DNA of 64,000 nucleotides from Candidatus Dojkabacteria bacterium (GCA_035444565.1 DAOMOX010000001.1:386335-450334), one strand, 5' to 3'. Counted from the first letter of the stretch, positions 2,310-61,763 are shown. The notes: generated from the letters alone by a model not told the origin. Translations and numbers: made by a program.

Positions 2310-4013
2310 ATGATATATTTTAGCAATATCGGTTTCTATAAAGCAAATATGAAATTATCTAAACTTCGAAAAGTATTTAAGAGAGCCAAGAAACAGCACA
2401 AAAGGTTCTTCTTCGCTATATCTGTGGGTACCTTTCTTTTACTGGTGTACCTGGCAGGTGTTATCTTTGGTGTTGATCAGTATTTAATAAAAACACTTCT
2501 TGAAGGAAGGGTGGTTTCAAACGATGGTGATGGTATTTCCGGTGCAGAAGTTATACTACAGGGGAAGAAAACAATAACTGACAAAAATGGTAGTTTTAGG
2601 TTTGAGGATGTGAAATTTGGCACATACGAAATTATAGTTGATACGGATGGTTATGTGAGGTATGTCGAAAAGGTAAAAATAAAGCGATTCTCAAACTATG
2701 TAGACATTTCGATGAGAGCTCAAGAATATGGCGAGGTTACGTTAACCTTCAAAACAGATCGTTCACAAGACAAAGTTCTCAACGTAAAAATTAATAACCA
2801 ACCATTCACTGTCCAAACTCTCACTGATAAATTTGTTGTCGAAACAGGAAGATTACTTGTGGGAAATTATTTATTAGAAATGAATTCTCCTGACTATGTG
2901 GACTTTAGTGAGAAATTCAATTTAGATTCTGGTAAATCAGAAATGGTGTATGACTTAGAACCTTCAGGTGATGTAGTTGCGGAATTTAGAAATTATTTAT
3001 CAGAAGACATAGTCGAACCAGGAGAAATCATCGTAACAATGGATGAGCAGATTGTTATTATACCAGAAATTGAAACCCCGGGGAAGTTAGAAATGAGAGA
3101 CATGGAAATAGGCAAAGAATATAAGATTCAATTAAAGTTATCAGGATATCTTGACAGAGAGGTAGAATTCGTTCCAACGCAAGGGTTAAATTCTCTTGGG
3201 AATGTTTTTATGTTCGTTGATGAAAGTGTAATTTATACTGATCGAGGTAAAATCGTTTCATCATTTATAGATGGTTCTAATAGGAAGGAGCTCTATGATT
3301 TTACAGATAAATGTAGAATAAGTCTCACAAAAGGCCAGTATTCAGTCTTCTCCTGTAGCTCAAGCTTCTTACTTTTTGAGAAGAAGGATAATGAATATAA
3401 TTTAATTCGAGAATATGTAATAACGGGTAGTAAATATGATCTTAATACTCAAAATTTACATATGTTAGCTCTAAGTGCGGATCTGAAATCTATACAACAA
3501 ATACATTCATCAATTAATACCACTGATTTGTATAAACATAATAAAGAGATTGATTCCGTTGTAGTAGATTCGAAAGGGATGGTTTATTTTTCGGATAACG
3601 AAGCAGTATACAAATTAATAGATTCAGAAGTTGAAAAGATAGTTGATGGTAATTATAGACTCGACAAAGTTTCTCCAGATAATACTACAATTTTGGCATT
3701 TGGAAATCGATCAGCAGGACAAAGCAATATTTGGGAACTAGAAACAACTACTAAGACTGTGACCAAGATAACTTTCTTGCCAAATGATTACAATTCATTG
3801 AATTTTGAAGGTAATGATAAAATTTATTATCAAGTGAAAAATGAGTTATTTTTAGGATCGATAAATCAAAATAACTTTACAAAAATTTCTGAAGGAATTG
3901 ATTATTATTGGTTAAACGAAGGTAGTGACTTCTTTATGGTAATGGCAGATAATTCAGTTCAATTTGTTTCCAAGACGAATTACAACAAAAAACCAATCTT
4001 CGCAAATGAATAG
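2310..4013 (+). CDS. membrane-anchored protein with carboxypeptidase-regulatory-like (CarboxypepD_reg) beta-sandwich domain and a putative beta-propeller region
   Basis: N-terminal TM 'FFFAISVGTFLLLVYLAGVIFGV'. 'GRVVSNDGDGISGAEVILQGKKTITDKNGSFRFEDVKFGTYEIIV' matches the CarboxypepD_reg motif. Alternative start at MKLSK (2349). Confidence 0.6.
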   Translation: MIYFSNIGFYKANMKLSKLRKVFKRAKKQHKRFFFAISVGTFLLLVYLAGVIFGVDQYLIKTLLEGRVVSNDGDGISGAEVILQGKKTITDKNGSFRFEDVKFGTYEIIVDTDGYVRYVEKVKIKRFSNYVDISMRAQEYGEVTLTFKTDRSQDKVLNVKINNQPFTVQTLTDKFVVETGRLLVGNYLLEMNSPDYVDFSEKFNLDSGKSEMVYDLEPSGDVVAEFRNYLSEDIVEPGEIIVTMDEQIVIIPEIETPGKLEMRDMEIGKEYKIQLKLSGYLDREVEFVPTQGLNSLGNVFMFVDESVIYTDRGKIVSSFIDGSNRKELYDFTDKCRISLTKGQYSVFSCSSSFLLFEKKDNEYNLIREYVITGSKYDLNTQNLHMLALSADLKSIQQIHSSINTTDLYKHNKEIDSVVVDSKGMVYFSDNEAVYKLIDSEVEKIVDGNYRLDKVSPDNTTILAFGNRSAGQSNIWELETTTKTVTKITFLPNDYNSLNFEGNDKIYYQVKNELFLGSINQNNFTKISEGIDYYWLNEGSDFFMVMADNSVQFVSKTNYNKKPIFANE

Positions 4014-28771: not shown

Positions 28772-31700
28772 TTAAAGAGCACAAGAAGCTTTATTGTATC
28801 TTTGTGCAAAACTTTGGAAGTCAACTATGTCGACCTTTCCTAGTTTGTCTACATCTTTTCCTCCACACTCTCCATAGCTAATATGGTCAGTTTCCGTATC
28901 ATCACAAAGTTTCTGATAGTAGGAAGCAAAACCAACTTGGTATCCACCAAAATCGTATATGCTAAACCATCCATCTCCATTCACATCCGCTGGTCCACAA
29001 ATGAATCCTACTAATGGGTTTGTCGGTGTAACTGTTGGTTCCTCTGATACTATTGGAGTATCGCTAGGAACAGGAGTATCACTTGGGACAGGAGTATCAC
29101 TTGGTACAGGTGTATCGCTTGGTATAATTGTCCCTGTAGGTGTATCACTAGGTATAATTGTTCCTGTAGGTGTTAGTGTAGGTGTTGGTGTGTTAGAACT
29201 TGTGACATCAGGTCCGGTTACTGTGAAATCCGAGGTGCAGGTATTGATTTTTGTATTGGTACCTGTCTGCACTTCCGCTGTATTTGTGATTACATCACCT
29301 TTTTTACCCTTGATTTTCATAACATATGCAATTCTCTTAACTCCTTCAGGTACTTTACACTCTAGGTAGTTACCTGTTATCAAAGCTGGAGTATCACCTG
29401 GAGAGACATCCTCTTTGGTCATGAGGAAGTAGAAACCTCCGATTAATAATACTACACCTGCTATTACTAATCCCCCTAGATAAGGTTTTTCTTTTAGTGT
29501 TGAATTAGTAATACTATCTTTATTTTTGTAAAGAATGTAATAGGTTACTCCACCAGATAGTATTGAGAAGAGTATGAAACTAAACAGTACTGATCCGCGG
29601 GAAGTATAGACATCGGATATTCCTAGTACCGCTGATTGAACTTCTTGTGTCTTGAGTTCACAATATTTTGGTTTTGATACTAGTTCCATCTTTTCACTTA
29701 AGTCATCTCTTACGAGTACTGTTCCGTCAGGTCCAGGTGCTAGATCGTTCAAGACGACCTTGTATTTGACCTGTTCACCAGTCCATAGTTTGCTTGGTAA
29801 TTCCTGAACTTTTCTACATGTCAAAGCAGTAATGGTTGCAGGAGTGGGTGTTATTGATGGGCTAGGTGTTGTTGTTGGCTTCTGAATCACATTAAATGTG
29901 TATGTAGGACAGTCAGTGGTCATTCCACTACTGACGACTCTGGAATTAACTAAGATTGGAGTTCCAGGCGTTACATTGTCTTTAACTTTCAAATTAATTG
30001 TTAATGCGCCTCCAGTTAAGTTACATGTGTACTTATCTCCTGCCTCTGTCTTAGCAAAAGTACAAGCAGGGTTAGGGTTAGAGCCCATGTCTGTAGGTAC
30101 TTCTAGTTGAGTCGGTATGAAGAAATGTAGTGTGTGAGAGACTCCTTCATTGAAAGGTACTTTTGTATTTAGGTATGTCTGAACACCAATTCTGTTTCCG
30201 GGATAAGGATCATCATAATTGGTGTTTAATGTAATATTCCTACATTCAGCAGGTAAGTCTAACCTATCCAAATCGCTTACCGAAGTACTGGTTGATGCAG
30301 CTTCTTCTAAACTTGCTTCAGATCCATAAGAGACTGGAATCTGGAGGCTTTCAATGTCGGTGGATGCTTTTGTTGTAGTTGTATCTCTTTCGCATCTCTC
30401 AAAAGGAGTGGTTGAGTTAGGATTGAAATTACAAATGTAGTTCTCAATTACACCCAAGAACTGTGTTAAATATGACTGACTCATTTTCTTTTGGGTTCCT
30501 GAGTCAAAGACGTATGAATTTGATGAGAAATAATTATCTTTTGAAACATTTCTATCATCACTTTTCCATGGGGAACATGTGCTTACTCCTGGTTCCGTCG
30601 GGTAGGTGACACATTCGATTGACCAAAAGATATATGGTGGTGTTTTTGCATCCAAGACGTTTGTAAGGGTACGATATGCACCTTCTCTATAGTAAGTGGT
30701 GGTTTCAATCGATTGGATAGTGCTTACATTAGGTGCACCGACCTTACTCGCTTCCGTAAATGTCCAGTCTGTACAACTTGCAACATCTTGATTATCTAGA
30801 ATGTCACAACTCCTTGTATAGACTGTTTTCCCATCTTGAGAGAGGGCGGTATAGTAAAGGATGTTCCTTGTTAAATCATAATTTTCATACTTGCCGATTC
30901 TGTGGTCAATATCTAGTGATCGTAATTTTGAAATCACTAAATCGCCTGTTTGGATTTTTAGTGATTTTACTGAATGTTTTGTCCAAACTTCATCTTGGTA
31001 AGTGAAGTTGTTACACTTTGTAAAATCAACACCATCTGCTTTACTCTTGTCCATATTACAGCTTCTGTAGTAGAAGTTTTCTCCAGCACTATCGAGTACT
31101 ACTTGGGAGAAGTTGTCTGCTTGTGCTACAGGAGTTACAGGTGGCGTTACTACAACAGTAGGAGGTACAGTCGTTGTAGGAGGTATTGTGGTAGCAGGTG
31201 GAGCAACCGTAGTGGTAACAGCTTGAGCTAGTACCTCGGCCTGAATATTATCGTAATAATAACCCAGATTGTATGTATAATTCATTTCAGGCTTTAGAAC
31301 TATTCTAAAGCTTGTCGTATTTATATCTGTAGATGCAGGAATCTTAAGATCAAAAGTGTAAGTCTTCCAGCTTGCCGTCAAGGCTGTCTTTGGAATAGGA
31401 ATTTGTTGTAACCATCCAGACCCAACAGGGTGTTCTCTTTGTATGTATAGACCTTCTAGAGCTGGTGGTGGTTGATGATCACTGCTAGTGCTATGTGCTT
31501 TTGCGTTGAATTTTACTCGAATTGTTCTTCCACTTAAGTTTTGTCCTGTTTCAATCCAATGAGTAGAGAAATCAGTCTTGGTTTTATCACCATCTAGTTT
31601 TCTACCCAATGTAATATATTTCTTTCCATCGGAGCAAGGACCCCATTGATCGCAATCATGTACCTGAGTAAATGAAGTATCTACTCCTGCTCCATATGAC

Positions 31701-32914
31701 CAGCTCTTGTAGTCACCCCACTCAAAGGAAGAGTTCAAGATGATAGGTTTGAGTTCGGGAGAGCAATCACCTCCCGGACATGAGTTCGGTCCCCCATAAA
31801 CACCCAAATCAGATCGAGAGCCGTTCAAATCTTTAATGTTTGGGTCTCCGGCGTCGATGGCAGGGGAACCGGCTTGCAGTGCGAAGTTTGTTGCGCTTAC
31901 AAATTTAGGGTCTGCGTGGAGTGAGTCACAAAATTCATTAACACCGCAACTAGTGCCTTCCCCAGCATTCCCAAAGGTTAAATTGTACGCAAATTTGTCA
32001 TTTTCCTTAAAACCTGGAGTTAGTAAGTTGTATCCTCCGATCCCAAAGCCAAAAGAATTGTCAGTGTTTTTCTTATTATTGGTTAAGATGTTATTTAAAA
32101 CTGTAACACTTGGGTTATGAACGGCACCCTGATATATAGTAATACCTGATACTACATTAGAAGAAATAATATTATTTGTGATTAATGCATTTGAATTTTC
32201 AGACAAATAAATTCCATCATTTGGATTCGAAGTAATGATGTTATTAAAAATAGTTGTTTTGGAATTCTGATATGTTCGAATCGCAGCACCAATATTGTTA
32301 GAGAATGAGTTGTTTCTAATGGTGGCCTTGGCATTCATAGAAATTGAAATTCCATATCCAAGTCCACATGTATTCGTATTACTCTCAAAACAACTATCCT
32401 CATCTGTTTTCATTCCTATTATTTTTAAACCTTCAATATTAATGACTCCTCCATGTACGACAATACCTGAAAGTGTATGAGTACTATTAGTCCCATCAAG
32501 AACTACAGAACCTTCGCCTTTTAATGTTAATGTTCTGATAGAGGTTTCAGGAATGAAAATAAAAGCTTTGAACTTTTTTTCAATGGATTCCCCATACGGT
32601 GTATAATTATATGGTGTATATCCTGTTCTTTTGTATGTCCCAGCTTTCAATAATATAGTATCGCCACTTTTTGCTGCATCAACTGCTCTCTGGATATTAT
32701 CACCACCTACATATTGACAACCATTTTGTCCTGCTGTTCCTGTTGCACAAACAGTAATCAGGTTAACAGGCGTAGTCGCAGCTTCACTATCCTCCTGCTC
32801 TGTCCGCTCCGACAAATACCGAGCCAAAACTAGTGTGAAAATCATGAATAAGAAGAGGAACAAGACTAGCAATATAGTTACTATTTGCCTTCTTTGGAGA
32901 TTTGTCTTAAGCAC
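28772..32914 (-). CDS. giant surface protein with N-terminal signal anchor, right-handed parallel beta-helix (pectin-lyase-like), two internal TM helices, Pro/Thr-rich tandem linker and C-terminal dockerin-like domain
   Basis: 1380 aa. N-terminal TM 'IVTILLVLFLFLFMIFTLVLA'. Beta-helix repeats 'NNIITSNPNDGIYLSENSNALITNNIISSNVVSGITIYQG'. Mid-protein TMs 'VLFSFILFSILSGGVTYYILY' and 'LGGLVIAGVVLLIGGFYFLMT'. Repeats '(PSDTPV)n/(PTGTIIPSDT)n'. C-terminus 'DVNGDGWFSIYDF' plus 'DVDKLGKVDIVDFQSFAQRY' matches two dockerin Ca-binding repeats. Confidence 0.8.
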   Translation of the reverse strand: MLKTNLQRRQIVTILLVLFLFLFMIFTLVLARYLSERTEQEDSEAATTPVNLITVCATGTAGQNGCQYVGGDNIQRAVDAAKSGDTILLKAGTYKRTGYTPYNYTPYGESIEKKFKAFIFIPETSIRTLTLKGEGSVVLDGTNSTHTLSGIVVHGGVINIEGLKIIGMKTDEDSCFESNTNTCGLGYGISISMNAKATIRNNSFSNNIGAAIRTYQNSKTTIFNNIITSNPNDGIYLSENSNALITNNIISSNVVSGITIYQGAVHNPSVTVLNNILTNNKKNTDNSFGFGIGGYNLLTPGFKENDKFAYNLTFGNAGEGTSCGVNEFCDSLHADPKFVSATNFALQAGSPAIDAGDPNIKDLNGSRSDLGVYGGPNSCPGGDCSPELKPIILNSSFEWGDYKSWSYGAGVDTSFTQVHDCDQWGPCSDGKKYITLGRKLDGDKTKTDFSTHWIETGQNLSGRTIRVKFNAKAHSTSSDHQPPPALEGLYIQREHPVGSGWLQQIPIPKTALTASWKTYTFDLKIPASTDINTTSFRIVLKPEMNYTYNLGYYYDNIQAEVLAQAVTTTVAPPATTIPPTTTVPPTVVVTPPVTPVAQADNFSQVVLDSAGENFYYRSCNMDKSKADGVDFTKCNNFTYQDEVWTKHSVKSLKIQTGDLVISKLRSLDIDHRIGKYENYDLTRNILYYTALSQDGKTVYTRSCDILDNQDVASCTDWTFTEASKVGAPNVSTIQSIETTTYYREGAYRTLTNVLDAKTPPYIFWSIECVTYPTEPGVSTCSPWKSDDRNVSKDNYFSSNSYVFDSGTQKKMSQSYLTQFLGVIENYICNFNPNSTTPFERCERDTTTTKASTDIESLQIPVSYGSEASLEEAASTSTSVSDLDRLDLPAECRNITLNTNYDDPYPGNRIGVQTYLNTKVPFNEGVSHTLHFFIPTQLEVPTDMGSNPNPACTFAKTEAGDKYTCNLTGGALTINLKVKDNVTPGTPILVNSRVVSSGMTTDCPTYTFNVIQKPTTTPSPSITPTPATITALTCRKVQELPSKLWTGEQVKYKVVLNDLAPGPDGTVLVRDDLSEKMELVSKPKYCELKTQEVQSAVLGISDVYTSRGSVLFSFILFSILSGGVTYYILYKNKDSITNSTLKEKPYLGGLVIAGVVLLIGGFYFLMTKEDVSPGDTPALITGNYLECKVPEGVKRIAYVMKIKGKKGDVITNTAEVQTGTNTKINTCTSDFTVTGPDVTSSNTPTPTLTPTGTIIPSDTPTGTIIPSDTPVPSDTPVPSDTPVPSDTPIVSEEPTVTPTNPLVGFICGPADVNGDGWFSIYDFGGYQVGFASYYQKLCDDTETDHISYGECGGKDVDKLGKVDIVDFQSFAQRYNKASCAL
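29055..29168 (-). repeat. in-frame tandem nucleotide repeats (18-nt and 30-nt units) encoding Pro/Thr/Ser/Asp linker of the 1380-aa protein
   Basis: Plus strand 'ggagtatcgctaggaaca / ggagtatcacttgggaca / ggagtatcacttggtaca / ggtgtatcgcttggtataattgtccctgta / ggtgtatcactaggtataattgttcctgta'. Confidence 0.8.
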
Positions 32915-50332: not shown

Positions 50333-50494
50333 CAGTAATTGTTATTCAAGGATGTTGATTATATAACAAAAAGGAGTAGTGGGCGATTGTTAATCGTTCG
50401 TTAAACAATTCATCAAATTTCATTATTTCTCCTTTGTTATTAACATCACTCAAGCTTTTAGTTAATATGTTATTAAATTTAAAATTGCCCTAGA

Positions 50495-51067
50495 TTGGAT
50501 CATTTATTGCCCAATGAAAAAGAGTTCGTAGAAAAAGCGCTTGTAAGTCTTGATGAATTTGTTCCTCTATATAAGTTTTATCAGAAAAAGATTTTCAATT
50601 ATTGTCTGCACAGACTTCCTACCGAAGTGGATGCCGAAGATACAACCTCTCAAGTATTTGTTAATGCACTTAATTCTTTCGCCAACAAACAATATGTGAG
50701 CTCAGATGAATATACTTTCAAAGCGTGGCTTTTTCGTATTGCCCATAATTTGATTGTTGATTTTTATCGAGGAAAATCTCGCTATAAAATAATTGAGATT
50801 GATGAAAACATTGTTGAAGATGAAGCTACTTGTCAAGAGATTGAAGAAACGCTGGACTTGGAAAGGAGTTCGAACAAGATTTTGGCAATCCTGAAAAGAT
50901 TTGATGACTCTACACAGAGTATTTTCGTACTTAGATTTAGAGAAGATATGAATTTTGAAGAAATTGCACAGGTGATAAGTCTAGACCTTTCTACAACAAA
51001 GATGAAATATTACCGGGCATTAAATCTGATAAAAAAAATAATTGAAAAAGAAAAATTTATTAATTAA
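50495..51067 (+). CDS. ECF-type RNA polymerase sigma factor (sigma-70 family, group 4)
   Basis: Region 2 'FKAWLFRIAHNLIVDFYRGKSR' and region 4 HTH 'NFEEIAQVISLDLSTTKMKYYRALNLIKK'. 190 aa. Confidence 0.8.
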   Translation: MDHLLPNEKEFVEKALVSLDEFVPLYKFYQKKIFNYCLHRLPTEVDAEDTTSQVFVNALNSFANKQYVSSDEYTFKAWLFRIAHNLIVDFYRGKSRYKIIEIDENIVEDEATCQEIEETLDLERSSNKILAILKRFDDSTQSIFVLRFREDMNFEEIAQVISLDLSTTKMKYYRALNLIKKIIEKEKFIN

Positions 51068-51069
51068 TT

Positions 51070-54000
51070 GTGACTAAAATCATGCCAAATGAGTATAAAG
51101 AAGTAGAAGAAGTTCTCTCAAAAGCGCTAAAGTCTGATCAGGATTTGAGACCTGATGCCAAAAGTGCAATGGATGAGAGAGTTAATAATACTATTCATAC
51201 TTTAAAAAACATGAAAAACGAAAACGTTCCAGAGAAAATTAGTTTTTTCTCAAAAGTTAAACTTGGTTTTTTTGCTACAAAAAAAAGAAGATTTGCCACA
51301 TTTTCTGTTGTCTCTCTTTTGTTACTCCCACTTATCATCATTACGCTTTTTGTTTTGACGAATGGGAATATTCCGATTTTCAGAAGGCAAGAAAATCTTA
51401 AAGCGGCAAGTGTCGATTTTGCGGCATCTAAAATTTCTGGAGATGGTGTGTCTCAAGATTCAGAATTTATCCTAAGAACTAAAGCGATTTATACAAATGT
51501 TGAATTGCAGGAAAAATTGAAGATTAGTCCTGCAATTAACTATGAGGTTAAAAAAATTTCCGAGGGATATAAGATATCACCGTTATCAAATCTTCAAAAA
51601 AATGTGCTTTATGAAGTCAAATTAGAGGATAGTGATGTGGATTTGGATTGGAACTTCCGTGTAGAACCCGGGTTTACAGTATTAGGTCACTCTCCAGCAG
51701 AAAACGCCCCAATCAATTCAGTGATTGAACTTAACTTTAATTATTCGGATATAGATTTAGATAGTATTCGTTCTGCATTCAAATCTAACCCTGTTATAAA
51801 TATTAAAGAAATTAAACAAGAAGGAAGAACTGTGATATTGATACCAGATAACCCTCTAACACTGAATTCTTCGTATTCATTGTATTTAAATAATACTGTG
51901 AAGAGAGAAAACGGTGAAAGTTTAAGTGTTCCGTATCAAGCTTATCTTTCTACCTATGACTCATCACAAGTGGATAACTACTCTCCTTCGATTTATTTCG
52001 GATCAACGGAAGGAAGAGAGAAATTGTTAGGATCGGAAAGAAAGGTTGCATTCAGCGTTTCTAATTATGTGTCGAATGTAAAAGGCAACGTGAAGATGTA
52101 TAAAGTTAAAAATGATATGTTCCTTGAGGCCACTAAAGAGTACTTTTCAGTAAATAGTTGGTATTCAACTTACCGTTTGGAAAGTAAGTACTTAGAAGAA
52201 ATAAAATCTGAAGAATTCACTCCTTCTCCCGATGTAGTTGTTACAGTTCCTGAAATTAATATGGGCGAAATCATTTACGTAGAAGCAAGTTACATGGGGG
52301 TTGTAAGAGGTGGTTATTATTTAACTACTGACTTATTAAGTCATATGACTTATATGCAAAATGAATTGGTATTAAATGTCTTTGATTCTCAAGGCAAAAT
52401 AATAAATGAAGGGACTGCAGATATTATTTACAAAGATAATAATAATCAAGTTCAATCAAAGTCTTTTCCAATTACAGGGATAGTTAGAATTCCTAAATCC
52501 GACTTGCCAGATCAGGATTCCATTTTGGGAGCACTGATTAATGCCAAGGGTGATAGGTTAATGTTAAGTATGACATCAAACTACCCACCAGGAACATATT
52601 GGTTTGGAGGTGATTACGAAGGTGATTCAGAATATAACAAAAACATCTTTAGTTACTTTATGATGGATAAACCTGTGTACACTGAAGGAGATAAGGTCAG
52701 ATTCAAGACCCAGTTTAGGTATTCAGAAGATTTTACTAGCTTCCAACCGTATGATGTTTCTGGACTTGAGTACGTGATTTACTATGGTGGGTCAGTTGTG
52801 GGTAAAGCGAAGCCCGAATATAACAAAGAATTAGGGTATATTACAGGAGAGTTCAACATACCAGGTGTGGGTGATAGCTATATGTCTGGGTCAATTCAGG
52901 TTGTGAGGGGTAATAACGTCATAGCTACAAAAAATTTCCCTATTCGGGAATATGTTAAACCCCAATATACGGTTTCTATTAGTGTTGATGATTCTAATAA
53001 AATATATCACCCAGGTGATGAAGTTGAATTTGCCGTAAAGGTGAATGATCTTGCAGGGAACCCATGGTCGGGGGGTGAAATCCAGGCAGACTTCGGATAT
53101 ACGGAGATGTATCGTTACTCTGGAATGAATATGACCAATTTGACTGCAAATAGCTATTTGACCAAATCAGTTGACAAAAAAACAGTTAAACTAGACTCAG
53201 GCGGCCATGTAAATCTTGTCTACAAAATAACAAACCCTGAAGTATCAGATACAAGCGACTTCTTCTCATCTGTCTTGCAGGTCAACATTGACAAACATGC
53301 AACAAAATCATATGGCGTTAAGTCAACCTTAGGAGACATTACTGTAATCGCAGAAACAACTGACAATAATGTGAGAAAGAAGTTGGGTGAAGAGGTTAAA
53401 ATCCAAGTCAAGACAGTAGATGTGCAAACTTTGACAGGTGTACCAAGTACTATAGACAAGATTGAGGTGGTTCGCCATTGGTCCGAGAAAATTCCAAGGA
53501 CATATTACAATTCAACTACACGCACCAACGAAACTACCTATGACTATGTTCAACATGAGGACCTGATAGAAACTCAGTACAATCTTAAAACTGATGATAA
53601 CGGTAATTTGGAATTGGTGAAGAAATATGACCAAGATGGTTCATACTTCTTTAGGTTTGAATTCAAAGATAGGAACAATAGACTGGTAAAATTCTATTCT
53701 TCGCTTTTCTACCTAAATGGTGATGACGATGATAGCAGTATACAGGACAATTCTCCAATAATTTACACAGATAAAAGTGTTTATGAAATTGGTGATAAGG
53801 TCAACGTTAGAGTTGAATTCCCAGATAATTTCTTGGATGGACGAGAAGCTTACATCTTCGTTTATAAAGATAAGATATACATGGAAGAGAAAATCTCGAT
53901 TACAGAGAATGTTTATAACTATTCCTATGATTTAACAAAAGAGCTTAGTCCGCAGGCAGGGATTCGGTTAGTTTATACTTTGCCAGTGAGCGACTTTGGT

Positions 54001-56391
54001 ACTGAATTTGCAAATGAAAAATATAGAGTTGTTGACTCCGTGGAGCAACATCTTGTGGTGAGAAGAGATGAAGATTTGTTAAATGTAGAAATTTCTAGTG
54101 AGAAGAAGGAATATTTCCCAGGAGAAGAAGTGAAAATGAAAATCAAAGTGACCGACGAAAACGGTAGATCGGTCTCCGGTGCAAATTTGAATACCCGAGT
54201 ATTTGATAAGTCATTGCTGGCAGTCCTCGACCAGGATAAATATCAGAAAGATATATACGATAAAGTTTTTGGGGTTTATAAAAGAATTGGAAGTCTCTTC
54301 ACTTTTCCAAAATCGCCTTATAGAGGTGATGGTGGAGATGGAGGTAGAGGTCCTGACGGAATCAGAAGAAATTTTGACGATGTTGCGACTTTCCAATCAA
54401 ATTTGATTACTGATGATTCCGGAAATGCCGAACTTAACTTTACTATTCCTGATTCTATAACTACATGGATTGTGGATGTTGATGCTTTTACAAAGATGTT
54501 GAATGTAGGCAATACTTTTGTTGAGATTTCAACGAATAAAGAGGTTATCGTGAATGGAACTTTCCCAGAAACAGTTAGAGTGGGTGATAAATTCTCTCCA
54601 AAGGTCGTTGTATACAATCACACGGACACTTCAGTAACAGGTAAATTGGTGATTACTGCCGGGGAAGGATTGGTTCTTTCAAATAGTGAGCAAAATATCG
54701 TCATTGAACCCAGAACAGGGGGAATATTTAATTTTGATGCTGAGGTAAAACAGGCAAAATCTGCGGGTACAATATTAACAATCAAGTTACTAGGAGAAGA
54801 TGGTAGTGTAATCGATGGAATTGAAAAAACCATTGAAATTAGGGTACCTGGTTTTCCAACAACATCTGTTGAATCAAAAAAACTTAGCTCAGGTGAAAAC
54901 GAATTGAAATTTAACATTGAAGGTGATCTTGAAAGAACATCAGCAAATTTGATGATTTCACCAAACTCATACAGATATGCATTCTTTACAAGAGATTTAA
55001 TAGTAAATTCTTCGGAAGAAAGAGCTTCATCAGTAGTCCATAACCTTGCAATATATGAAAATTATGACAAAGGTCAAAGTGTGATTCCGATGAGCAAAGA
55101 TTCAATATTAGACCAGTCCATTTTAAGCATTGCTGCTTTACTAGAAACGAGAAATGAAGATGGGGGTTATGGAATGTTTGGATATAGCACTTCTGACATT
55201 AAAAACACCTCCTATGTGGCATATGCCCTTGGAAAGGGAAATCAGTCCGGAGCAGGGAATAGTTATGATGAGAAGGAATTGCTCACTCAATATCTAGTTG
55301 AACAAGTTGTCACAACCGAAGGCAAGGTGAACAAATCTACGACTCCTTATGATAAGACCATGGCAGTATGGGCTCTAAGTTACATTGATCCATCAAAGGC
55401 AATCAACTATGCACAAATGATCAAAAGTCAGTTGAATGGAGACGAGACTATGGCAGAACTATCACTTCTGGCAGACGCTCTGTATACGTCGGGAAGCACT
55501 GGGGATGCTCGAGCTGTCACACAAGAGATGCTTTCAAAATTACAAACAAATAATTTGAATCAGATGTTTATTGAAGAATATCAACCTTACTCAGAGAATA
55601 AATATTTCGCAAATATCTTTCTTTGGAAGATGCTAAATGTATTAGACCTAGATGATAATTCCGAAGAAAAAGTCGGGAATTGGATAATGGCTAATACAGA
55701 AACAGATTCGGCTTTTGAATCAGCACTAATTAACGAGATGTTATTGAATTATAGAGTGCAAGAACAGTCTGTAGATGCTGAAATTGAGCTTTATGTAAAC
55801 GAGACAGAAGTATTTAAAGGTAATATCTCAGAATTTGGTGAAAGCTTCCTTCTAACTAATCTAAAAGGAGGAGAGAATGTTGTTAGAATAACCTCCAACA
55901 AAGATGGGCTGAGATATCTTCTGAAACTCAGTGAGGTGACTCAAAGTCAAATTACATCGACAGACGATTTTACGGTTAAAACTGAGTACATGCCTTTAGA
56001 AACAATGATTAGTTCTTCTACAATCCCCTCAAGCGAGTACACATTGGTGAGACTTACCGTTACTGCCAAAAAAGAACACAAAGGATATCATGTTAAGACT
56101 TATCTTCCTGCTGGTGTTACTGTTGGTAGTGCTATCCCTAGACTGGATTCCTCAGAAGCATATCGTGATTGGGTCTACAGTAAGAACTATTCAAATAAAT
56201 GGCCACAGGTATCAAGAGGATCGCTAACTTTTGATGCGTATTATAGTGAAAATAGTAATACTCAGGTATTTGAATATCTCCTTGTAACGGACCACAAAGG
56301 GGTCTATGGAACTGATGGAACTTATGTTTACTACGACGATGGTTCAGGTTTTAAGGGTTATGATGCAGGGAAAACGATTACAATAAACTAA
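51070..56391 (+). CDS. giant single-pass membrane protein with anti-sigma-like cytoplasmic N-terminus and alpha-2-macroglobulin-like extracytoplasmic region (multiple MG domains, thioester-less)
   Basis: About 85-aa N-terminal segment then TM 'FATFSVVSLLLLPLIIITLFVLT'. Repeated MG-domain starts 'KPVYTEGDKVRFK', 'KIYHPGDEVEFAVKV', 'KSVYEIGDKVNVRVEF' and 'KEYFPGEEVKMKIKV'. A2M signature 'RRNFDDVATFQSNLITDDSGNAELNFTIPDSITTWIVDVDAF'. No Cys anywhere in the 1773 aa. Starts 3 nt after the sigma factor stop. Confidence 0.8.
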   Translation: MTKIMPNEYKEVEEVLSKALKSDQDLRPDAKSAMDERVNNTIHTLKNMKNENVPEKISFFSKVKLGFFATKKRRFATFSVVSLLLLPLIIITLFVLTNGNIPIFRRQENLKAASVDFAASKISGDGVSQDSEFILRTKAIYTNVELQEKLKISPAINYEVKKISEGYKISPLSNLQKNVLYEVKLEDSDVDLDWNFRVEPGFTVLGHSPAENAPINSVIELNFNYSDIDLDSIRSAFKSNPVINIKEIKQEGRTVILIPDNPLTLNSSYSLYLNNTVKRENGESLSVPYQAYLSTYDSSQVDNYSPSIYFGSTEGREKLLGSERKVAFSVSNYVSNVKGNVKMYKVKNDMFLEATKEYFSVNSWYSTYRLESKYLEEIKSEEFTPSPDVVVTVPEINMGEIIYVEASYMGVVRGGYYLTTDLLSHMTYMQNELVLNVFDSQGKIINEGTADIIYKDNNNQVQSKSFPITGIVRIPKSDLPDQDSILGALINAKGDRLMLSMTSNYPPGTYWFGGDYEGDSEYNKNIFSYFMMDKPVYTEGDKVRFKTQFRYSEDFTSFQPYDVSGLEYVIYYGGSVVGKAKPEYNKELGYITGEFNIPGVGDSYMSGSIQVVRGNNVIATKNFPIREYVKPQYTVSISVDDSNKIYHPGDEVEFAVKVNDLAGNPWSGGEIQADFGYTEMYRYSGMNMTNLTANSYLTKSVDKKTVKLDSGGHVNLVYKITNPEVSDTSDFFSSVLQVNIDKHATKSYGVKSTLGDITVIAETTDNNVRKKLGEEVKIQVKTVDVQTLTGVPSTIDKIEVVRHWSEKIPRTYYNSTTRTNETTYDYVQHEDLIETQYNLKTDDNGNLELVKKYDQDGSYFFRFEFKDRNNRLVKFYSSLFYLNGDDDDSSIQDNSPIIYTDKSVYEIGDKVNVRVEFPDNFLDGREAYIFVYKDKIYMEEKISITENVYNYSYDLTKELSPQAGIRLVYTLPVSDFGTEFANEKYRVVDSVEQHLVVRRDEDLLNVEISSEKKEYFPGEEVKMKIKVTDENGRSVSGANLNTRVFDKSLLAVLDQDKYQKDIYDKVFGVYKRIGSLFTFPKSPYRGDGGDGGRGPDGIRRNFDDVATFQSNLITDDSGNAELNFTIPDSITTWIVDVDAFTKMLNVGNTFVEISTNKEVIVNGTFPETVRVGDKFSPKVVVYNHTDTSVTGKLVITAGEGLVLSNSEQNIVIEPRTGGIFNFDAEVKQAKSAGTILTIKLLGEDGSVIDGIEKTIEIRVPGFPTTSVESKKLSSGENELKFNIEGDLERTSANLMISPNSYRYAFFTRDLIVNSSEERASSVVHNLAIYENYDKGQSVIPMSKDSILDQSILSIAALLETRNEDGGYGMFGYSTSDIKNTSYVAYALGKGNQSGAGNSYDEKELLTQYLVEQVVTTEGKVNKSTTPYDKTMAVWALSYIDPSKAINYAQMIKSQLNGDETMAELSLLADALYTSGSTGDARAVTQEMLSKLQTNNLNQMFIEEYQPYSENKYFANIFLWKMLNVLDLDDNSEEKVGNWIMANTETDSAFESALINEMLLNYRVQEQSVDAEIELYVNETEVFKGNISEFGESFLLTNLKGGENVVRITSNKDGLRYLLKLSEVTQSQITSTDDFTVKTEYMPLETMISSSTIPSSEYTLVRLTVTAKKEHKGYHVKTYLPAGVTVGSAIPRLDSSEAYRDWVYSKNYSNKWPQVSRGSLTFDAYYSENSNTQVFEYLLVTDHKGVYGTDGTYVYYDDGSGFKGYDAGKTITIN

Positions 56392-56394
56392 CCG

Positions 56395-56433
56395 ATGGGG
56401 GTGTAAATCGCACCCCCATTATATATTTCTTCT
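56395..56433 (+). terminator. rho-independent terminator after the A2M-like gene
   Basis: ATGGGGGTG-TAAATCG-CACCCCCAT followed by TATATATTTCTTCT. Confidence 0.65.
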
Positions 56434-56742
56434 CATACTCATCTTTGTTTACCATAAATTGAGATTAAACAAAACTTGAGTTATGCTACAATTCCTTAGT
56501 AAGGAAGGGTGTCCAGCCTTCGTCAAGACTTCGGCTGGTAAACTGAGATTGTCCCTCCCTTCGATGAAGGGTGGGGTGAAGCCGAAAGAGTTCAAATAAT
56601 GGAAGGGTCGCATCCCTCTACCCCCTGATAAAGTTAGGGGTTCGAGGGACAAGTAGACTCAAGATAATAAGTAAAACCATTTTGGAAGGGTGTCTGAGTT
56701 TGCCCCGCCTTGGCGGGGTGAAGTCGAAAGAGTTTAAATATT

Positions 56743-56829
56743 GGAAGGGTCGCATAGTGGTCTAGTGCCCCGCTCTCGAAAAGCGGTATCGGGGAAACCT
56801 GATCGTGGGTTCAAATCCCACCCCTTCCG
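56743..56829 (+). tRNA. tRNA-Ser (anticodon CGA), class II with long variable arm
   Basis: Hand-folded cloverleaf. Acceptor GGAAGGG/CCCTTCC, discriminator G73, 3-bp D-stem GCA/TGC. Anticodon stem CCGCT/AGCGG with loop CU-CGA-AA. About 18-nt variable arm. T-arm GTGGG-TTCAAAT-CCCAC. No encoded CCA. Confidence 0.85.
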
Positions 56830-57070
56830 AGACTGTTGATGAATCGAACTAAGCGATGATGAAGCATACAGTCGTTGGGAACGGCCTTGCGCTGTTTCGC
56901 CACGATTAGATTCCGCAGAGCAAAACAAAACGTGGGCGGGAACAACCTGGCGCTGTTCCGTTCTACTTCGCTGAAGCTTCGTAGAGCATAGCTATTCTCT
57001 ATAAGTACAAGTTATATAATCCCCCTAGAAGTAATTTGAAAAATAAGATAAAGTTATCGAGAGGTGCTAT

Positions 57071-61094: not shown

Positions 61095-61763
61095 ATGATT
61101 ACTTTTGATCACCTATTTATAATCCTTAAACCGACTATCATTGTAGTGTGCCTTTTTCTAATTTTTTCAGTTGTATTCTATCTGATTAAGAAATGGGTTA
61201 GGGTTTTGATTCTAGGAAGAAAATTTAAATTCCAAAATCAATATTCAACGGATAGACAAATGCTAGATAGACTTACAGATTTATCACCAAGTGAGTTTGA
61301 GGGTTATATTGGAAATCTGTACAGGAAACTTGGTTATGATATAAAAGTAGTTGGAGGTAGAAGTGATGGAGGTATAGATGTTATTGCAGATAAAGATGGG
61401 GTTCGATCCTATATACAATGTAAGCGTTATAAAACTAGCACGGTCTCAGTTCACGATGTGAGAGATTTCTACGGTGCTTTGGTAAACAAATTAACTAATA
61501 GCAAAGGTGTTTTCGTAACCACAAATATCTTTTCAAAAGAAGCAGAACTATTTTCTGAAGGGAAGCCGATTGAATTGCTAGATGGTTTCAAATTAATAAA
61601 ACTGATCAAGTTAACGGAAAGTAATAAAAAGGTAGTTATTCCTAAAGTAACACAATCTGTATGTCCAAAATGTGGTAGTAGTTTAATATTAAAAAGTGGT
61701 AAATACGGGGAATTCTATGGGTGTACAAAATATCCAGAATGTAAGTTTACAAAATCTACTTAG
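61095..61763 (+). CDS. membrane-anchored Mrr-cat-type restriction endonuclease-fold protein with C-terminal topoisomerase-type C4 zinc ribbon
   Basis: N-terminal TM. 'SPSEFEGYIGNLYRKLGYDIKVVGGRSDGGIDVIADKDGVRSYIQCKRYK' is the Mrr_cat (PD-(D/E)xK) pattern. C-terminus 'CPKCGSSLILKSGKYGEFYGCTKYPECKF'. Confidence 0.7.
   Translation: MITFDHLFIILKPTIIVVCLFLIFSVVFYLIKKWVRVLILGRKFKFQNQYSTDRQMLDRLTDLSPSEFEGYIGNLYRKLGYDIKVVGGRSDGGIDVIADKDGVRSYIQCKRYKTSTVSVHDVRDFYGALVNKLTNSKGVFVTTNIFSKEAELFSEGKPIELLDGFKLIKLIKLTESNKKVVIPKVTQSVCPKCGSSLILKSGKYGEFYGCTKYPECKFTKST

What the first reader, a model, noticed from the sequence alone, without database searches (positions are those of the whole stretch)
50495..56391. 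ECF sigma factor translationally coupled to a giant anti-sigma-like / alpha-2-macroglobulin-like membrane protein
The sigma gene stops 3 nt before a 1773-aa ORF. That ORF begins with ~85 cytoplasmic residues and one TM helix, the architecture of ECF anti-sigma factors. Everything beyond the membrane is a full-length alpha-2-macroglobulin-type protein with repeated MG-domain starts and the 'F..ETW-type' segment 'RRNFDDVATFQSNLITDDSGNAELNFTIPDSITTWIVDVDAF'. Bacterial A2Ms are normally stand-alone periplasmic lipoproteins, often paired with a PBP1C-like partner (from memory). Fusion of an A2M-like body to an anti-sigma module would make protease or target capture by the A2M body a direct input to an ECF transcriptional response. 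This is an architecture I do not recognise as described.
Basis: partly seen in the sequence, partly recalled or inferred. Interest (0 to 1): 0.8.

Follow-up and report, generated by a model that had tools for sequence, protein, structure and literature searches.

The report
Sigma factor paired with membrane-anchored macroglobulin
A small alternative sigma-factor gene shares a two-gene operon with a 1,769-residue, membrane-anchored alpha-2-macroglobulin-like surface protein whose conserved cytoplasmic tail probably holds the sigma factor in check. The pairing recurs in several unrelated bacteria and was not found in the literature searched, but the regulatory link is inferred, not shown.

Summary
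Window 50495-51067 encodes an ECF sigma factor. The next gene is a full bacterial alpha-2-macroglobulin (A2M); its real start is probably ATG 51082, giving 1769 aa and a 14-nt spacer. Predicted structures of both halves best match E. coli ECAM and Salmonella A2M. The thioester is lost (CxEQ is SSEE here). ECAM has a lipoprotein signal; this protein has a 68-residue helical cytoplasmic segment and one TM helix.

NCBI already names the gene 'alpha-2-macroglobulin family protein' in a Candidatus Dojkabacteria (CPR) MAG.

What is new is the linkage:
- The sigma-A2M pair is kept in every relative found (45-74% identity) while the flanks change.
- Three distant A2Ms (about 20% identity) with a long hydrophilic N-terminus plus a TM helix each sit directly behind a different ECF sigma. 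One of them has an intact thioester.
- None of about 70 control A2M loci has a sigma gene upstream.
- Two of the TM-anchored A2Ms with low-complexity tails sit beside PBP genes.

The anti-sigma role is therefore well supported by comparison. It is unproven: no anti-sigma domain homology was found, and a complex prediction could not be run. I found no published description. Verdict: a new variant of a known kind (ECF sigma/anti-sigma), of moderately high interest.

The parts
50440..50468 (+). sigma-70-like promoter candidate upstream of the sigma gene (TTAACA-17-TAATAT). The block aligns with a conserved TTTAC(A/T)-17-TATTAT-like block in related loci.
   Evidence: This is a consensus match only. 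Whether it is a housekeeping or an ECF-type (GAAC) promoter was not resolved.
50495..51067 (+). ECF (group 4) sigma factor gene, 190 aa, TTG start conserved in relatives; NCBI HRN85743.1
   Evidence: Pfam r2 and r4; TIGR02937 above its cut-off. Closest solved relatives are SigW (5wuq) and BldN (6dxo).
51069..51078 (+). conserved 10-mer TGTGACTAAA in the sigma-A2M spacer; function unknown
   Evidence: Identical in the window, L001, L002, L004 and L007, although the sigma factors are only 49-69% identical. It is not a Shine-Dalgarno site; the genome hardly uses SD motifs (1 of 50 genes).
51082..56391 (+). membrane-anchored, thioester-less alpha-2-macroglobulin family protein and putative anti-sigma factor (1769 aa from the ATG; NCBI HRN85742.1)
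51082..51285 (+). cytoplasmic N-terminal domain, residues 1-68: three predicted helices (2-15, 24-46, 55-65), no Cys, one His; candidate sigma-binding module
   Evidence: Hydropathy and KKRR before the TM helix. AF2 secondary structure, at low pLDDT. It is as conserved as the whole protein (74/72/62/38% against 74/61/59/45%), whereas the TM helix is less conserved. No homologue outside the family among 1.84 billion proteins.
51286..51363 (+). the single transmembrane helix (about residues 69-94)
   Evidence: It is the only Kyte-Doolittle segment above 1.6 in the whole protein. AF2 predicts a helix at 69-94.
51394..52653 (+). N-terminal extracytoplasmic beta domains (MG0/NIE/MG1-like, including Big_5 at residues 202-286)
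   Evidence: Pfam Big_5. Foldseek of the N-terminal model hits ECAM 5a42 (6e-13) and the ECAM MG0-NIE-MG1 fragment 4zjg (8e-11).
52654..54222 (+). MG domain array, from the Pfam MG2 match (residues 525-594) to A2M_BRD (residues 895-1047)
   Evidence: AF2 beta-sandwich repeats
54271..54399 (+). bait-equivalent flexible loop (residues about 1064-1106; ...FPKSPYRGDGGDGGRGPDGIRRNF)
   Evidence: pLDDT below 50 at fragment residues 445-487. It aligns with the Gly-rich linker of other bacterial A2Ms. It is the most conserved region in the family (91/79/86/56%).
54388..54648 (+). Pfam A2M domain, including PDSITTW
   Evidence: 7.6e-15; PDB profile hits to C5 and A2M
55009..55020 (+). thioester-site equivalent: SSEE in place of CxEQ
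   Evidence: In alignment A4 the family has (V/I)NS-(S/T)EE where homologues have YGC-xEQ. No family member has a CxEQ motif.
55012..55752 (+). TED-like all-helical domain (residues about 1311-1557)
   Evidence: AF2 helices at fragment residues 692-938; Foldseek co-linearity with ECAM and SaA2M
56038..56316 (+). bacterial MG10-like C-terminal domain
   Evidence: Pfam bMG10 at 5e-4, below its cut-off; beta-sandwich in the model
56394..56420 (+). intrinsic-terminator-like hairpin directly after the stop codon; it closes the two-gene operon
   Evidence: 11-bp stem, 6 GC pairs, T-rich tail; sequence seen

Best explanation
[quoted passage not shown] The anti-sigma factor's extracytoplasmic sensor is a complete, thioester-less bacterial alpha-2-macroglobulin.

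Shown:
- The upstream gene is an ECF sigma factor.
- The downstream protein has one TM helix with a 68-residue hydrophilic, helical N-terminal segment on the positive (cytoplasmic) side.
- The remaining roughly 1675 residues are co-linear with ECAM and Salmonella A2M, but lack the thioester Cys and Gln.
- The pair is a compact unit ending in a terminator-like hairpin.
- The pairing is conserved, and it recurs with unrelated ECF sigmas in distant lineages.

Inferred:
1. The cytoplasmic helices bind sigma regions 2 and 4 and hold the sigma factor at the membrane (probability about 0.65).
2. The signal is proteolytic attack on, or a forced conformational change of, the surface A2M body. A2Ms rearrange when the bait region is cut (probability about 0.55, given step 1).
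3. This rearrangement destabilises the juxtamembrane region. Regulated proteolysis of the anti-sigma factor then releases the sigma factor, as for RsiW and RsiV. This step is speculative: no site-2 protease was seen in the 64-kb window, and the regulon is unknown.
For: Sigma identity.

A2M identity and full co-linearity:
- Pfam.
- AF2 models: pLDDT 78 for the C-terminal 1150 aa and 66 for the N-terminal 630 aa.
- Foldseek: 5a42 at 3e-54 and 4u48 at 2e-53; 5a42, 4u48 and 4zjg for the N-terminal model.

Topology: there is a single hydrophobic segment at residues 69-94, after KKRR.

Conserved pairing while the flanks change: L001, L002 and L003-L005 (A2M 59-74% identical) and L007 (sigma 49%, A2M 45%).

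Recurrence with non-orthologous sigmas (16-24% identical to each other):
- P0017/L011: 4-nt overlap, thioester CFEQ present, 56% GC.
- P0047/L012: 33% GC.
- P0048/L013: 26% GC, spore-former-like.
All three were picked only for having a long N-terminus plus a TM helix, and all three follow an ECF sigma.

Controls:
- None of about 70 5'-complete A2M loci has a sigma gene within 2.5 kb upstream. Nearly all have signal-peptide-like N-termini and a CxEQ motif.
- Only 3-4 sigma ORFs occur in 1.09 Mb of those loci, and none is adjacent to the A2M gene.
- TM-anchored A2Ms with low-complexity Pro/Thr/Glu tails lack an upstream sigma gene. L014 and L017 sit beside PBP genes instead.

Constraint on the cytoplasmic domain: it is as conserved as the folded ectodomains and more conserved than the TM helix.

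Sigma homologues at about 30% identity are followed by overlapping single-pass TM proteins, the ordinary anti-sigma layout.
Against: - The N-terminal domain matches no anti-sigma family in Pfam or NCBIfam and no PDB chain.
- It matches no protein outside its own family among 1.84 billion representatives.
- It has no HxxxCxxC zinc motif.
- AF2 gives it low confidence on its own.
- The bait-equivalent loop is short and is the most conserved part of the protein. This argues against a promiscuous protease bait.
- With no thioester there is no covalent capture.
- The bait loop lies about 1000 residues from the membrane, so cutting it cannot by itself give the short stub that site-2 proteases usually need.
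- The upstream promoter looks at least as much housekeeping as ECF-type, so autoregulation is not shown.
- The family is tiny: about 6 clusters in 5.8 billion.
Confidence: 0.6

Rival explanations
1. The A2M is a target of the sigma factor, not its regulator. It is simply a membrane-anchored surface protease trap or shield. A monoderm CPR cell has no periplasm or outer membrane to hold a lipoprotein. The sigma factor transcribes or co-regulates the gene, the N-terminal 68 residues are a long signal anchor, and the sigma factor is controlled by something else.
For: - No anti-sigma homology was found.
- Other CPR-like A2Ms are also TM-anchored, with 38-50-residue cytoplasmic tails and no upstream sigma gene.
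- The promoter upstream of the operon resembles a housekeeping promoter.
- The cytoplasmic domain has low pLDDT.
Against: - The tails of sigma-less TM-anchored A2Ms are low-complexity and differ from this helical, conserved domain.
- The long structured N-terminus and the ECF neighbour co-occur in 3 of 3 independent distant cases and in none of about 70 controls.
- A sigma factor co-transcribed with its own target, with no inhibitor, would be an uncontrolled positive loop.
- The position directly downstream of an ECF sigma, with N-in single-pass topology, is the canonical anti-sigma layout (established knowledge of ECF systems).
Confidence: 0.22
2. It is an anti-sigma factor, but the input is not protease attack. 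The thioester-less A2M scaffold would act as a giant adhesin or contact sensor for the host cell surface (CPR bacteria are mostly epibionts), or as a sensor of envelope integrity. This overlaps with the core claim of the best explanation and differs only in the signal.
For: - The thioester is lost.
- The bait-equivalent loop is conserved rather than hypervariable.
- Very large surface proteins of Patescibacteria are thought to mediate host recognition (PMC13059738).
- Classical A2Ms pair with peptidoglycan synthases, which hints at a link to the cell wall.
Against: - The entire protease-trap architecture is retained: BRD, flexible loop, A2M domain, TED and MG10.
- The planctomycete-like sigma-linked member keeps an intact CFEQ thioester and TED_complement, as expected for a real protease- or nucleophile-reactive A2M.
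- From memory, not checked here: the thioester-less MagD of Pseudomonas still interacts with proteases.
Confidence: 0.25
3. The adjacency is coincidental or an annotation artefact, with no functional link.
For: The family is small and known only from metagenomes.
Against: - The pair is conserved down to 45-49% identity while the flanking genes are replaced.
- It recurs in three distant lineages with different sigmas.
- No sigma gene lies upstream of the A2M gene in the controls.
- The ORF is intact, with high-confidence folds.
Confidence: 0.02

Closest known systems
Type-1 bacterial alpha-2-macroglobulins (E. coli ECAM/YfhM, Salmonella SaA2M; PDB 5a42, 4u48, 4zjg)
   Same: Same co-linear domain train from MG0/NIE through the MG array, BRD, Gly-rich bait linker, A2M domain and TED to MG10. 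They are the best structural matches for both halves.
   Different: - Sequence identity is only 12-14% in the Foldseek alignments to these solved structures (21-23% to the nearest metagenomic A2Ms).
- The thioester CxEQ is replaced by SSEE.
- A lipoprotein or signal-peptide N-terminus is replaced by a 68-residue cytoplasmic domain plus a TM helix.
- The neighbour is an ECF sigma gene, not a PBP1C-type gene.
Type-2 bacterial A2Ms (YfaS / Pseudomonas MagD); from memory, not tested here
   Same: Thioester-less A2M associated with the cytoplasmic membrane.
   Different: MagD lies in a six-gene mag operon and is held at the membrane by partner proteins. Here the protein has its own TM helix and sits in a two-gene operon with a sigma factor. 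No mag-like neighbours were seen.
Single-pass ECF anti-sigma factors inactivated by regulated proteolysis (B. subtilis RsiW/SigW, RsiV/SigV)
   Same: The gene lies directly downstream of the ECF sigma. The topology is N-in and single-pass, with a cytoplasmic domain of about 70 residues. The sigma factor's closest solved relative is SigW.
   Different: There is no sequence match to any anti-sigma domain and no zinc motif. The ectodomain is about 1675 residues instead of about 100-200.
Myxococcus DdvS/DdvA (PMC6061681)
   Same: An ECF sigma with a translationally coupled single-pass anti-sigma factor that has a cytoplasmic domain of about 70 residues and a very large (about 900-residue) extracytoplasmic domain proposed to sense the signal.
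   Different: The DdvA ectodomain is TPR plus a CHAT protease, and its N-terminus is a ZAS domain. Here the ectodomain is an A2M and there is no zinc motif.
Clostridial SigI/RsgI systems (anti-sigma factors with carbohydrate-binding sensor modules); from memory
   Same: The same concept: a known extracellular binding module fused to an anti-sigma factor, so that an external macromolecule drives a dedicated sigma factor.
   Different: A different sigma class (SigI, not ECF), a different N-terminal domain (RsgI_N), and a different sensor.

Membership tests
ECF (group 4) sigma-70 factors | Sigma regions 2 and 4 present; regions 1 and 3 absent; about 170-220 aa | tested here: met
   Pfam Sigma70_r2 at residues 25-96 and Sigma70_r4 at 133-180, with nothing else; 190 aa.
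ECF (group 4) sigma-70 factors | Scores above the curated cut-off of the ECF superfamily model | tested here: met
   TIGR02937 sigma70-ECF: 70.4 bits against a cut-off of 42.9. No equivalog or subfamily cut-off was reached (best is the BldN family at 95.9 against 206).
ECF (group 4) sigma-70 factors | Autoregulated ECF-type promoter (AAC at -35, CGT-like at -10) upstream of its own operon | tested here: inconclusive
   The conserved upstream block can be read either as TTTACA-17-TATTAT (housekeeping-like) or as containing GAAC. No CGT at -10.
Alpha-2-macroglobulin / thioester-containing protein superfamily | MG-domain array with a bait-region domain and the A2M domain | tested here: met
   Pfam A2M 7.6e-15, A2M_BRD 2.3e-13 and MG2 above cut-off. 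Foldseek 3e-54 to ECAM over about 1240 columns.
Alpha-2-macroglobulin / thioester-containing protein superfamily | Helical thioester domain (TED) followed by a C-terminal MG/RBD domain | tested here: met
   AF2 helical bundle at residues 1311-1557, then a beta-sandwich; bMG10 at 5e-4.
Alpha-2-macroglobulin / thioester-containing protein superfamily | Reactive thioester motif CxEQ | tested here: not met
   SSEE (family: S(S/T)EE) aligns with CxEQ. No member of the close family has a CxEQ motif.
Type-1 bacterial A2M (ECAM/YfhM) | Signal peptide or lipobox, periplasmic lipoprotein | tested here: not met
   A 68-residue hydrophilic segment precedes the only hydrophobic helix. Control A2Ms have the hydrophobic segment within about 25 residues of the start.
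Type-1 bacterial A2M (ECAM/YfhM) | Genomic pairing with a PBP1C-type peptidoglycan synthase | tested here: not met
   The neighbours within about 4 kb are MFS, PCMT and hypothetical genes, a sigma factor and tRNA-Ser. The pairing was seen in the control loci L014 and L017.
Type-2 bacterial A2M (YfaS/MagD) | Thioester-less A2M inside the conserved multi-gene mag/yfa operon | tested here: not met
   It is thioester-less, but it sits in a two-gene operon with a sigma factor. Flanking ORFs were scanned against Pfam only: no hit, or PCMT, MFS, GNAT and Mrr. The operon's composition is recalled from memory.
ECF anti-sigma factors (class I ASD / ZAS and others) | Encoded next to, and co-oriented with, the cognate ECF sigma | tested here: met
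   14-nt spacer in the window. The pairing is conserved in L001-L005 and L007, with analogous pairs in L011-L013.
ECF anti-sigma factors (class I ASD / ZAS and others) | Single-pass membrane protein with an N-terminal cytoplasmic domain of about 50-90 residues | tested here: met
   Hydropathy, the positive-inside rule (KKRR) and the AF2 TM helix at 69-94. No dedicated topology predictor was available.
ECF anti-sigma factors (class I ASD / ZAS and others) | Recognisable anti-sigma domain (sequence match to zf-HC2, RskA, RsiV-type and similar families, or an HxxxCxxC motif) | tested here: not met
   No Pfam, NCBIfam or PDB hit even at E up to 10. Zero Cys and one His in residues 1-68. Anti-sigma domains are notoriously divergent, so this weakens membership of a named class, not the functional analogy.
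ECF anti-sigma factors (class I ASD / ZAS and others) | Physical binding and inhibition of the cognate sigma factor | not testable with these tools
No multimer predictor was available.

The most novel reading that the evidence does not exclude
A whole class of bacterial alpha-2-macroglobulins, in at least CPR bacteria, a Firmicute-like lineage and a planctomycete-like lineage, has been recruited as the extracellular sensor of ECF anti-sigma factors. The classic A2M event, bait cleavage followed by a large conformational change, would then be read out as release of a dedicated sigma factor. That would be a protease-sensing transcriptional switch built from an innate-immunity-type trap, and a third genomic class of bacterial A2M beside the PBP1C-linked and Mag-operon types.
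Probability: 0.3. Interest if true: 0.85.

Novelty: new variant of a known kind. Interest (0 to 1): 0.64.

Why it matters
Two well-studied fields meet here.

- For ECF signalling, this would add a large, mechanistically understood sensor module (A2M) to the small list of anti-sigma inputs whose stimulus can be guessed from the fold. It would also give a testable model for how bacteria sense foreign proteases.
- For bacterial A2Ms, the physiological role is still debated ('periplasmic shield working with PBP1C'). The sigma-linked form would show that the scaffold can be used for signalling as well as trapping, and that it works on the surface of monoderm, ultra-small CPR cells.
- In a genome of about 0.6 Mb (the longest contig carrying the gene is 620,866 bp), spending 5.3 kb on this gene plus a dedicated sigma factor implies an important function. 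That function may relate to survival on or near a host.
- The planctomycete-like member, which has an intact thioester, offers a natural comparison.

Tried and rejected
The key test could therefore not be run.
2. HMM profile of the cytoplasmic domain against 1.84 billion representative proteins: only family members were found, plus one spurious 37-bit hit. The domain is not a detectable member of any wider anti-sigma family.
3. Pfam at E up to 10, NCBIfam, and a PDB profile search of the N-terminus (window family and P0017/P0047/P0048): nothing relevant.
4. Promoter analysis of five aligned upstream regions: a conserved block exists, but its reading is ambiguous (housekeeping or ECF type). No regulon search was attempted on that basis.
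5. I considered that the conserved spacer 10-mer TGTGACTAAA is a ribosome-binding site. I rejected it as an SD site because the genome essentially lacks SD motifs (1 of 50 genes). It remains unexplained.
6. I looked for a site-2 protease (HExxH with multiple TM helices) in the window: none. This is uninformative, because the window is about 10% of the genome.
7. Taxonomy: one related contig is labelled Saccharibacteria, but NCBI names identical proteins as Candidatus Dojkabacteria. I adopted the latter.
8. Literature searches for A2M with anti-sigma or ECF, and the ECF re-classification paper (main text only; its supplements are not held): no mention.
9. dN/dS was not attempted, because synonymous sites are saturated at 45-74% amino-acid identity. 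Per-region identity was used instead.

Full report
**1. What is there**

The window has about 35% GC and carries ordinary chromosomal genes: IF-2, GluRS, a Mur ligase and acetyl-CoA synthetase. Proteins identical to those of the finding are deposited at NCBI from Candidatus Dojkabacteria MAGs, with a longest contig of 620,866 bp. The sigma factor is HRN85743.1, 'RNA polymerase sigma factor'. The large protein is HRN85742.1, 'alpha-2-macroglobulin family protein', 1769 aa.

- 50495-51067 is a 190-aa ECF sigma factor. It has Pfam regions 2 and 4 only, and TIGR02937 scores above its cut-off. Its closest solved relatives are SigW and BldN.
- The next ORF has Pfam A2M, A2M_BRD, MG2, Big_5 and a sub-threshold bMG10.

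**2. Corrections to the observation**

- All homologues, and NCBI's gene call, begin at MPNEYK, which is ATG 51082 and not GTG 51070. The protein is therefore 1769 aa. The spacer after the sigma stop is 14 nt, and 17-27 nt in close relatives. This is a compact operon, not an overlap.
- A terminator-like hairpin follows the stop codon at 56394-56420, so the unit is two genes.
- The organism hardly uses Shine-Dalgarno sites (1 of 50 genes).

**3. Anatomy of the large protein**

- *Hydrophobic segment.* Only one exists, at about residues 69-94. It follows KKRR and a 68-residue charged segment. That is far too long for a signal-peptide n-region.
- *N-terminal part.* AF2 on the first 630 residues predicts three helices (2-15, 24-46, 55-65), a TM helix (69-94), and then beta domains. 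The cytoplasmic part has low confidence. The beta domains match ECAM and its MG0-NIE-MG1 fragment 4zjg.
- *C-terminal part.* AF2 on the last 1150 residues has mean pLDDT 78. It shows MG-type sandwiches, a disordered Gly/Asp-rich loop (residues about 1064-1106), the A2M domain, an all-helical TED-like domain (1311-1557) and a C-terminal MG10-like sandwich. Foldseek ranks E. coli ECAM (5a42, 3e-54) and Salmonella A2M (4u48, 2e-53) first, followed by A2ML1, C5, CD109 and TEP1.
- *Overall.* The ectodomain is a complete bacterial A2M. The cytoplasmic domain plus TM helix takes the place of the usual secretion or lipoprotein signal.
- *Thioester.* Where homologues have YGC-xEQ, the family has (V/I)NS-(S/T)EE. 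There is no thioester.

**4. Is the sigma-A2M linkage real?**

*Close family.* It is very small. Four clusters came from the first search, plus P0041 and the window's own cluster, out of 5.8 billion. In every locus recovered, an ECF sigma lies directly upstream: L001, L002, L003-L005, and L007 where the sigma factor is only 49% and the A2M 45% identical. Meanwhile the downstream genes differ. They are prophage-like genes in L003/L005, DUF6624/Imm5 in L002, and APH/FAA hydrolase in L007.

*Distant A2Ms with long N-termini.* Among the distant A2M hits (about 20-25% identity) I picked out those with a long hydrophilic N-terminus before a TM helix.
- P0017, P0047 and P0048 were the three with charged, non-low-complexity N-termini. 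All three lie immediately downstream of an ECF sigma.
- The four sigmas are only 16-24% identical to one another, and the loci have 56%, 33% and 26% GC. These are different ECF groups in different lineages. One is planctomycete-like with an upstream Ser/Thr kinase. One is spore-former-like with a SigE/K-like gene nearby.
- P0017 keeps a CFEQ thioester and has a classic-looking anti-sigma N-terminus (LALDYLYGLHDG...).
- P0047 and P0048 are homologous to the window protein along its whole length, including the first post-membrane domain. They also lack the thioester.

*Controls.*
- I fetched 80 further A2M loci from metagenomes. None of the roughly 70 with a complete 5' end has a sigma ORF within 2.5 kb upstream. 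Nearly all have a hydrophobic segment within about 25 residues of the start, and a CxEQ motif.
- The sigma HMM does find 3-4 unrelated sigma ORFs elsewhere in those 1.09 Mb, so it is sensitive enough.
- TM-anchored A2Ms whose tails are low-complexity (Pro/Thr/Glu/Asn-rich) have no upstream sigma gene. L014 and L017 lie by class A PBP or transpeptidase genes, the classical pairing.

The association between a structured cytoplasmic N-domain and an upstream ECF sigma is therefore specific.

**5. Is the N-terminal domain an anti-sigma domain?**

*For:* It has the canonical position and topology. It is as conserved as the folded ectodomains (74/72/62/38% against 74/61/59/45%), whereas the TM helix is less conserved. 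It co-occurs with ECF sigmas as described above. Sigma relatives at about 30% identity are followed by ordinary overlapping single-pass proteins.

*Against:* It has no homology to any Pfam or NCBIfam anti-sigma family or any PDB chain. It has no relative outside the family among 1.84 billion proteins. It has no zinc motif.

Anti-sigma domains are known to be very divergent, so I put sigma binding at about 0.65.

**6. Mechanism**

The best-supported model has three steps.
1. The cytoplasmic helices sequester the sigma factor.
2. The surface A2M body senses an extracellular event.
3. That event leads to destruction of the anti-sigma factor and release of the sigma factor.

Retention of the full protease-trap architecture, and of an intact thioester in the planctomycete-like member, favours proteolytic attack as the signal.

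Several points count against a promiscuous bait in the window family:
- The thioester is lost.
- The bait-equivalent loop is short and is the most conserved segment (91/79/86/56%).
- The loop lies about 1000 residues from the membrane, so its cleavage cannot itself be a classical site-1 cut.

A specific protease, a host-contact signal or an envelope signal all remain open. Large surface proteins of Patescibacteria are generally thought to mediate host interaction (PMC13059738). The regulon is unknown, and the promoter type upstream of the operon is ambiguous.

**7. Comparison with what is known, and novelty**

- As an A2M, it is closest to ECAM and SaA2M in fold. It fails three features of that type: the thioester, the lipoprotein signal and the PBP1C neighbour. 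It is not in a Mag-type operon either.
- As a regulator, it resembles single-pass ECF anti-sigma factors. The best precedent for a giant ectodomain is Myxococcus DdvA, which has a cytoplasmic ZAS domain of about 70 residues and a TPR-CHAT ectodomain of about 900 residues (PMC6061681).
- No paper in the searchable library links A2M or MG domains to anti-sigma factors. The main text of the 2021 ECF re-classification does not mention them. Its supplements were not available.
- The A2M annotation itself is already in GenBank.

I therefore rate this a new variant of a known kind. The part that is new and reasonably well supported is a recurrent ECF-sigma/A2M architecture across phyla. Its function is still inferred.

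Noticed in passing
window 51069-51078; L001, L002, L004 and L007 sigma-A2M spacers: An identical 10-mer, TGTGACTAAA, sits in the short spacer between the sigma and A2M genes in all five loci, although the proteins have diverged to 45-49% identity. It contains a (T/A)TG-TGA 'start-stop' and is not SD-like. Its function is unknown.
   Followed up: partly
window, whole: Only 1 of 50 ORFs of at least 150 aa has a Shine-Dalgarno-like motif upstream. The sigma gene uses a TTG start that is conserved in relatives. The 204-aa sigma calls in L001 and L002 probably start too far upstream (MVLLLAYYYLYYCP... translates the promoter/leader block).
   Followed up: partly
window 56440-56830: tRNA-Ser(CGA) lies at 56742-56830. 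A 44-nt direct repeat (91% identical), comprising the tRNA's first 14 nt plus the 30 nt upstream of it, occurs 142 nt upstream (56570-56613 and 56712-56755). It lies within a GC-rich, apparently structured intergenic stretch. This may be an integration scar or a decayed tRNA copy.
   Followed up: partly
L012 4001-9439 (P0047): This sigma-linked A2M homologue carries an intein (Pfam PT-HINT / Intein_splicing), inserted exactly in the Gly-rich bait-equivalent loop just before the A2M domain.
   Followed up: no
L011 1845-4004: In the planctomycete-like locus, a Ser/Thr protein kinase gene lies directly upstream of the ECF sigma, whose stop overlaps the start of the thioester-containing A2M gene by 4 nt. 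This may add a second regulatory layer (kinase-linked ECF groups are known).
   Followed up: no
L013 8945-9646: Directly downstream of the A2M gene in the 26%-GC locus lies a second, longer sigma factor (233 aa, regions 2 and 4, with an N-terminal extension resembling sporulation pro-sigma factors).
   Followed up: no
window 61095-61763; L003/L005 7740-8408: An Mrr-type restriction endonuclease fused to a topoisomerase-type zinc ribbon lies a few kb downstream of the A2M gene in the window. The same combination lies next to resolvase and terminase (prophage-like) genes in L003/L005, which suggests a variable or mobile region downstream of the operon.
   Followed up: no
window 28772-32914 (-): Another very large ORF (1380 aa) with a right-handed beta-helix / NosD-like region, probably another surface protein. 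A 567-aa protein at 2310-4013 has CarboxypepD_reg and PEGA domains.
   Followed up: no
L006: Taxonomic labels disagree. A 60%-identical A2M fragment is deposited as 'uncultured Candidatus Saccharibacteria', while proteins identical to those of the window are labelled Candidatus Dojkabacteria.
   Followed up: partly
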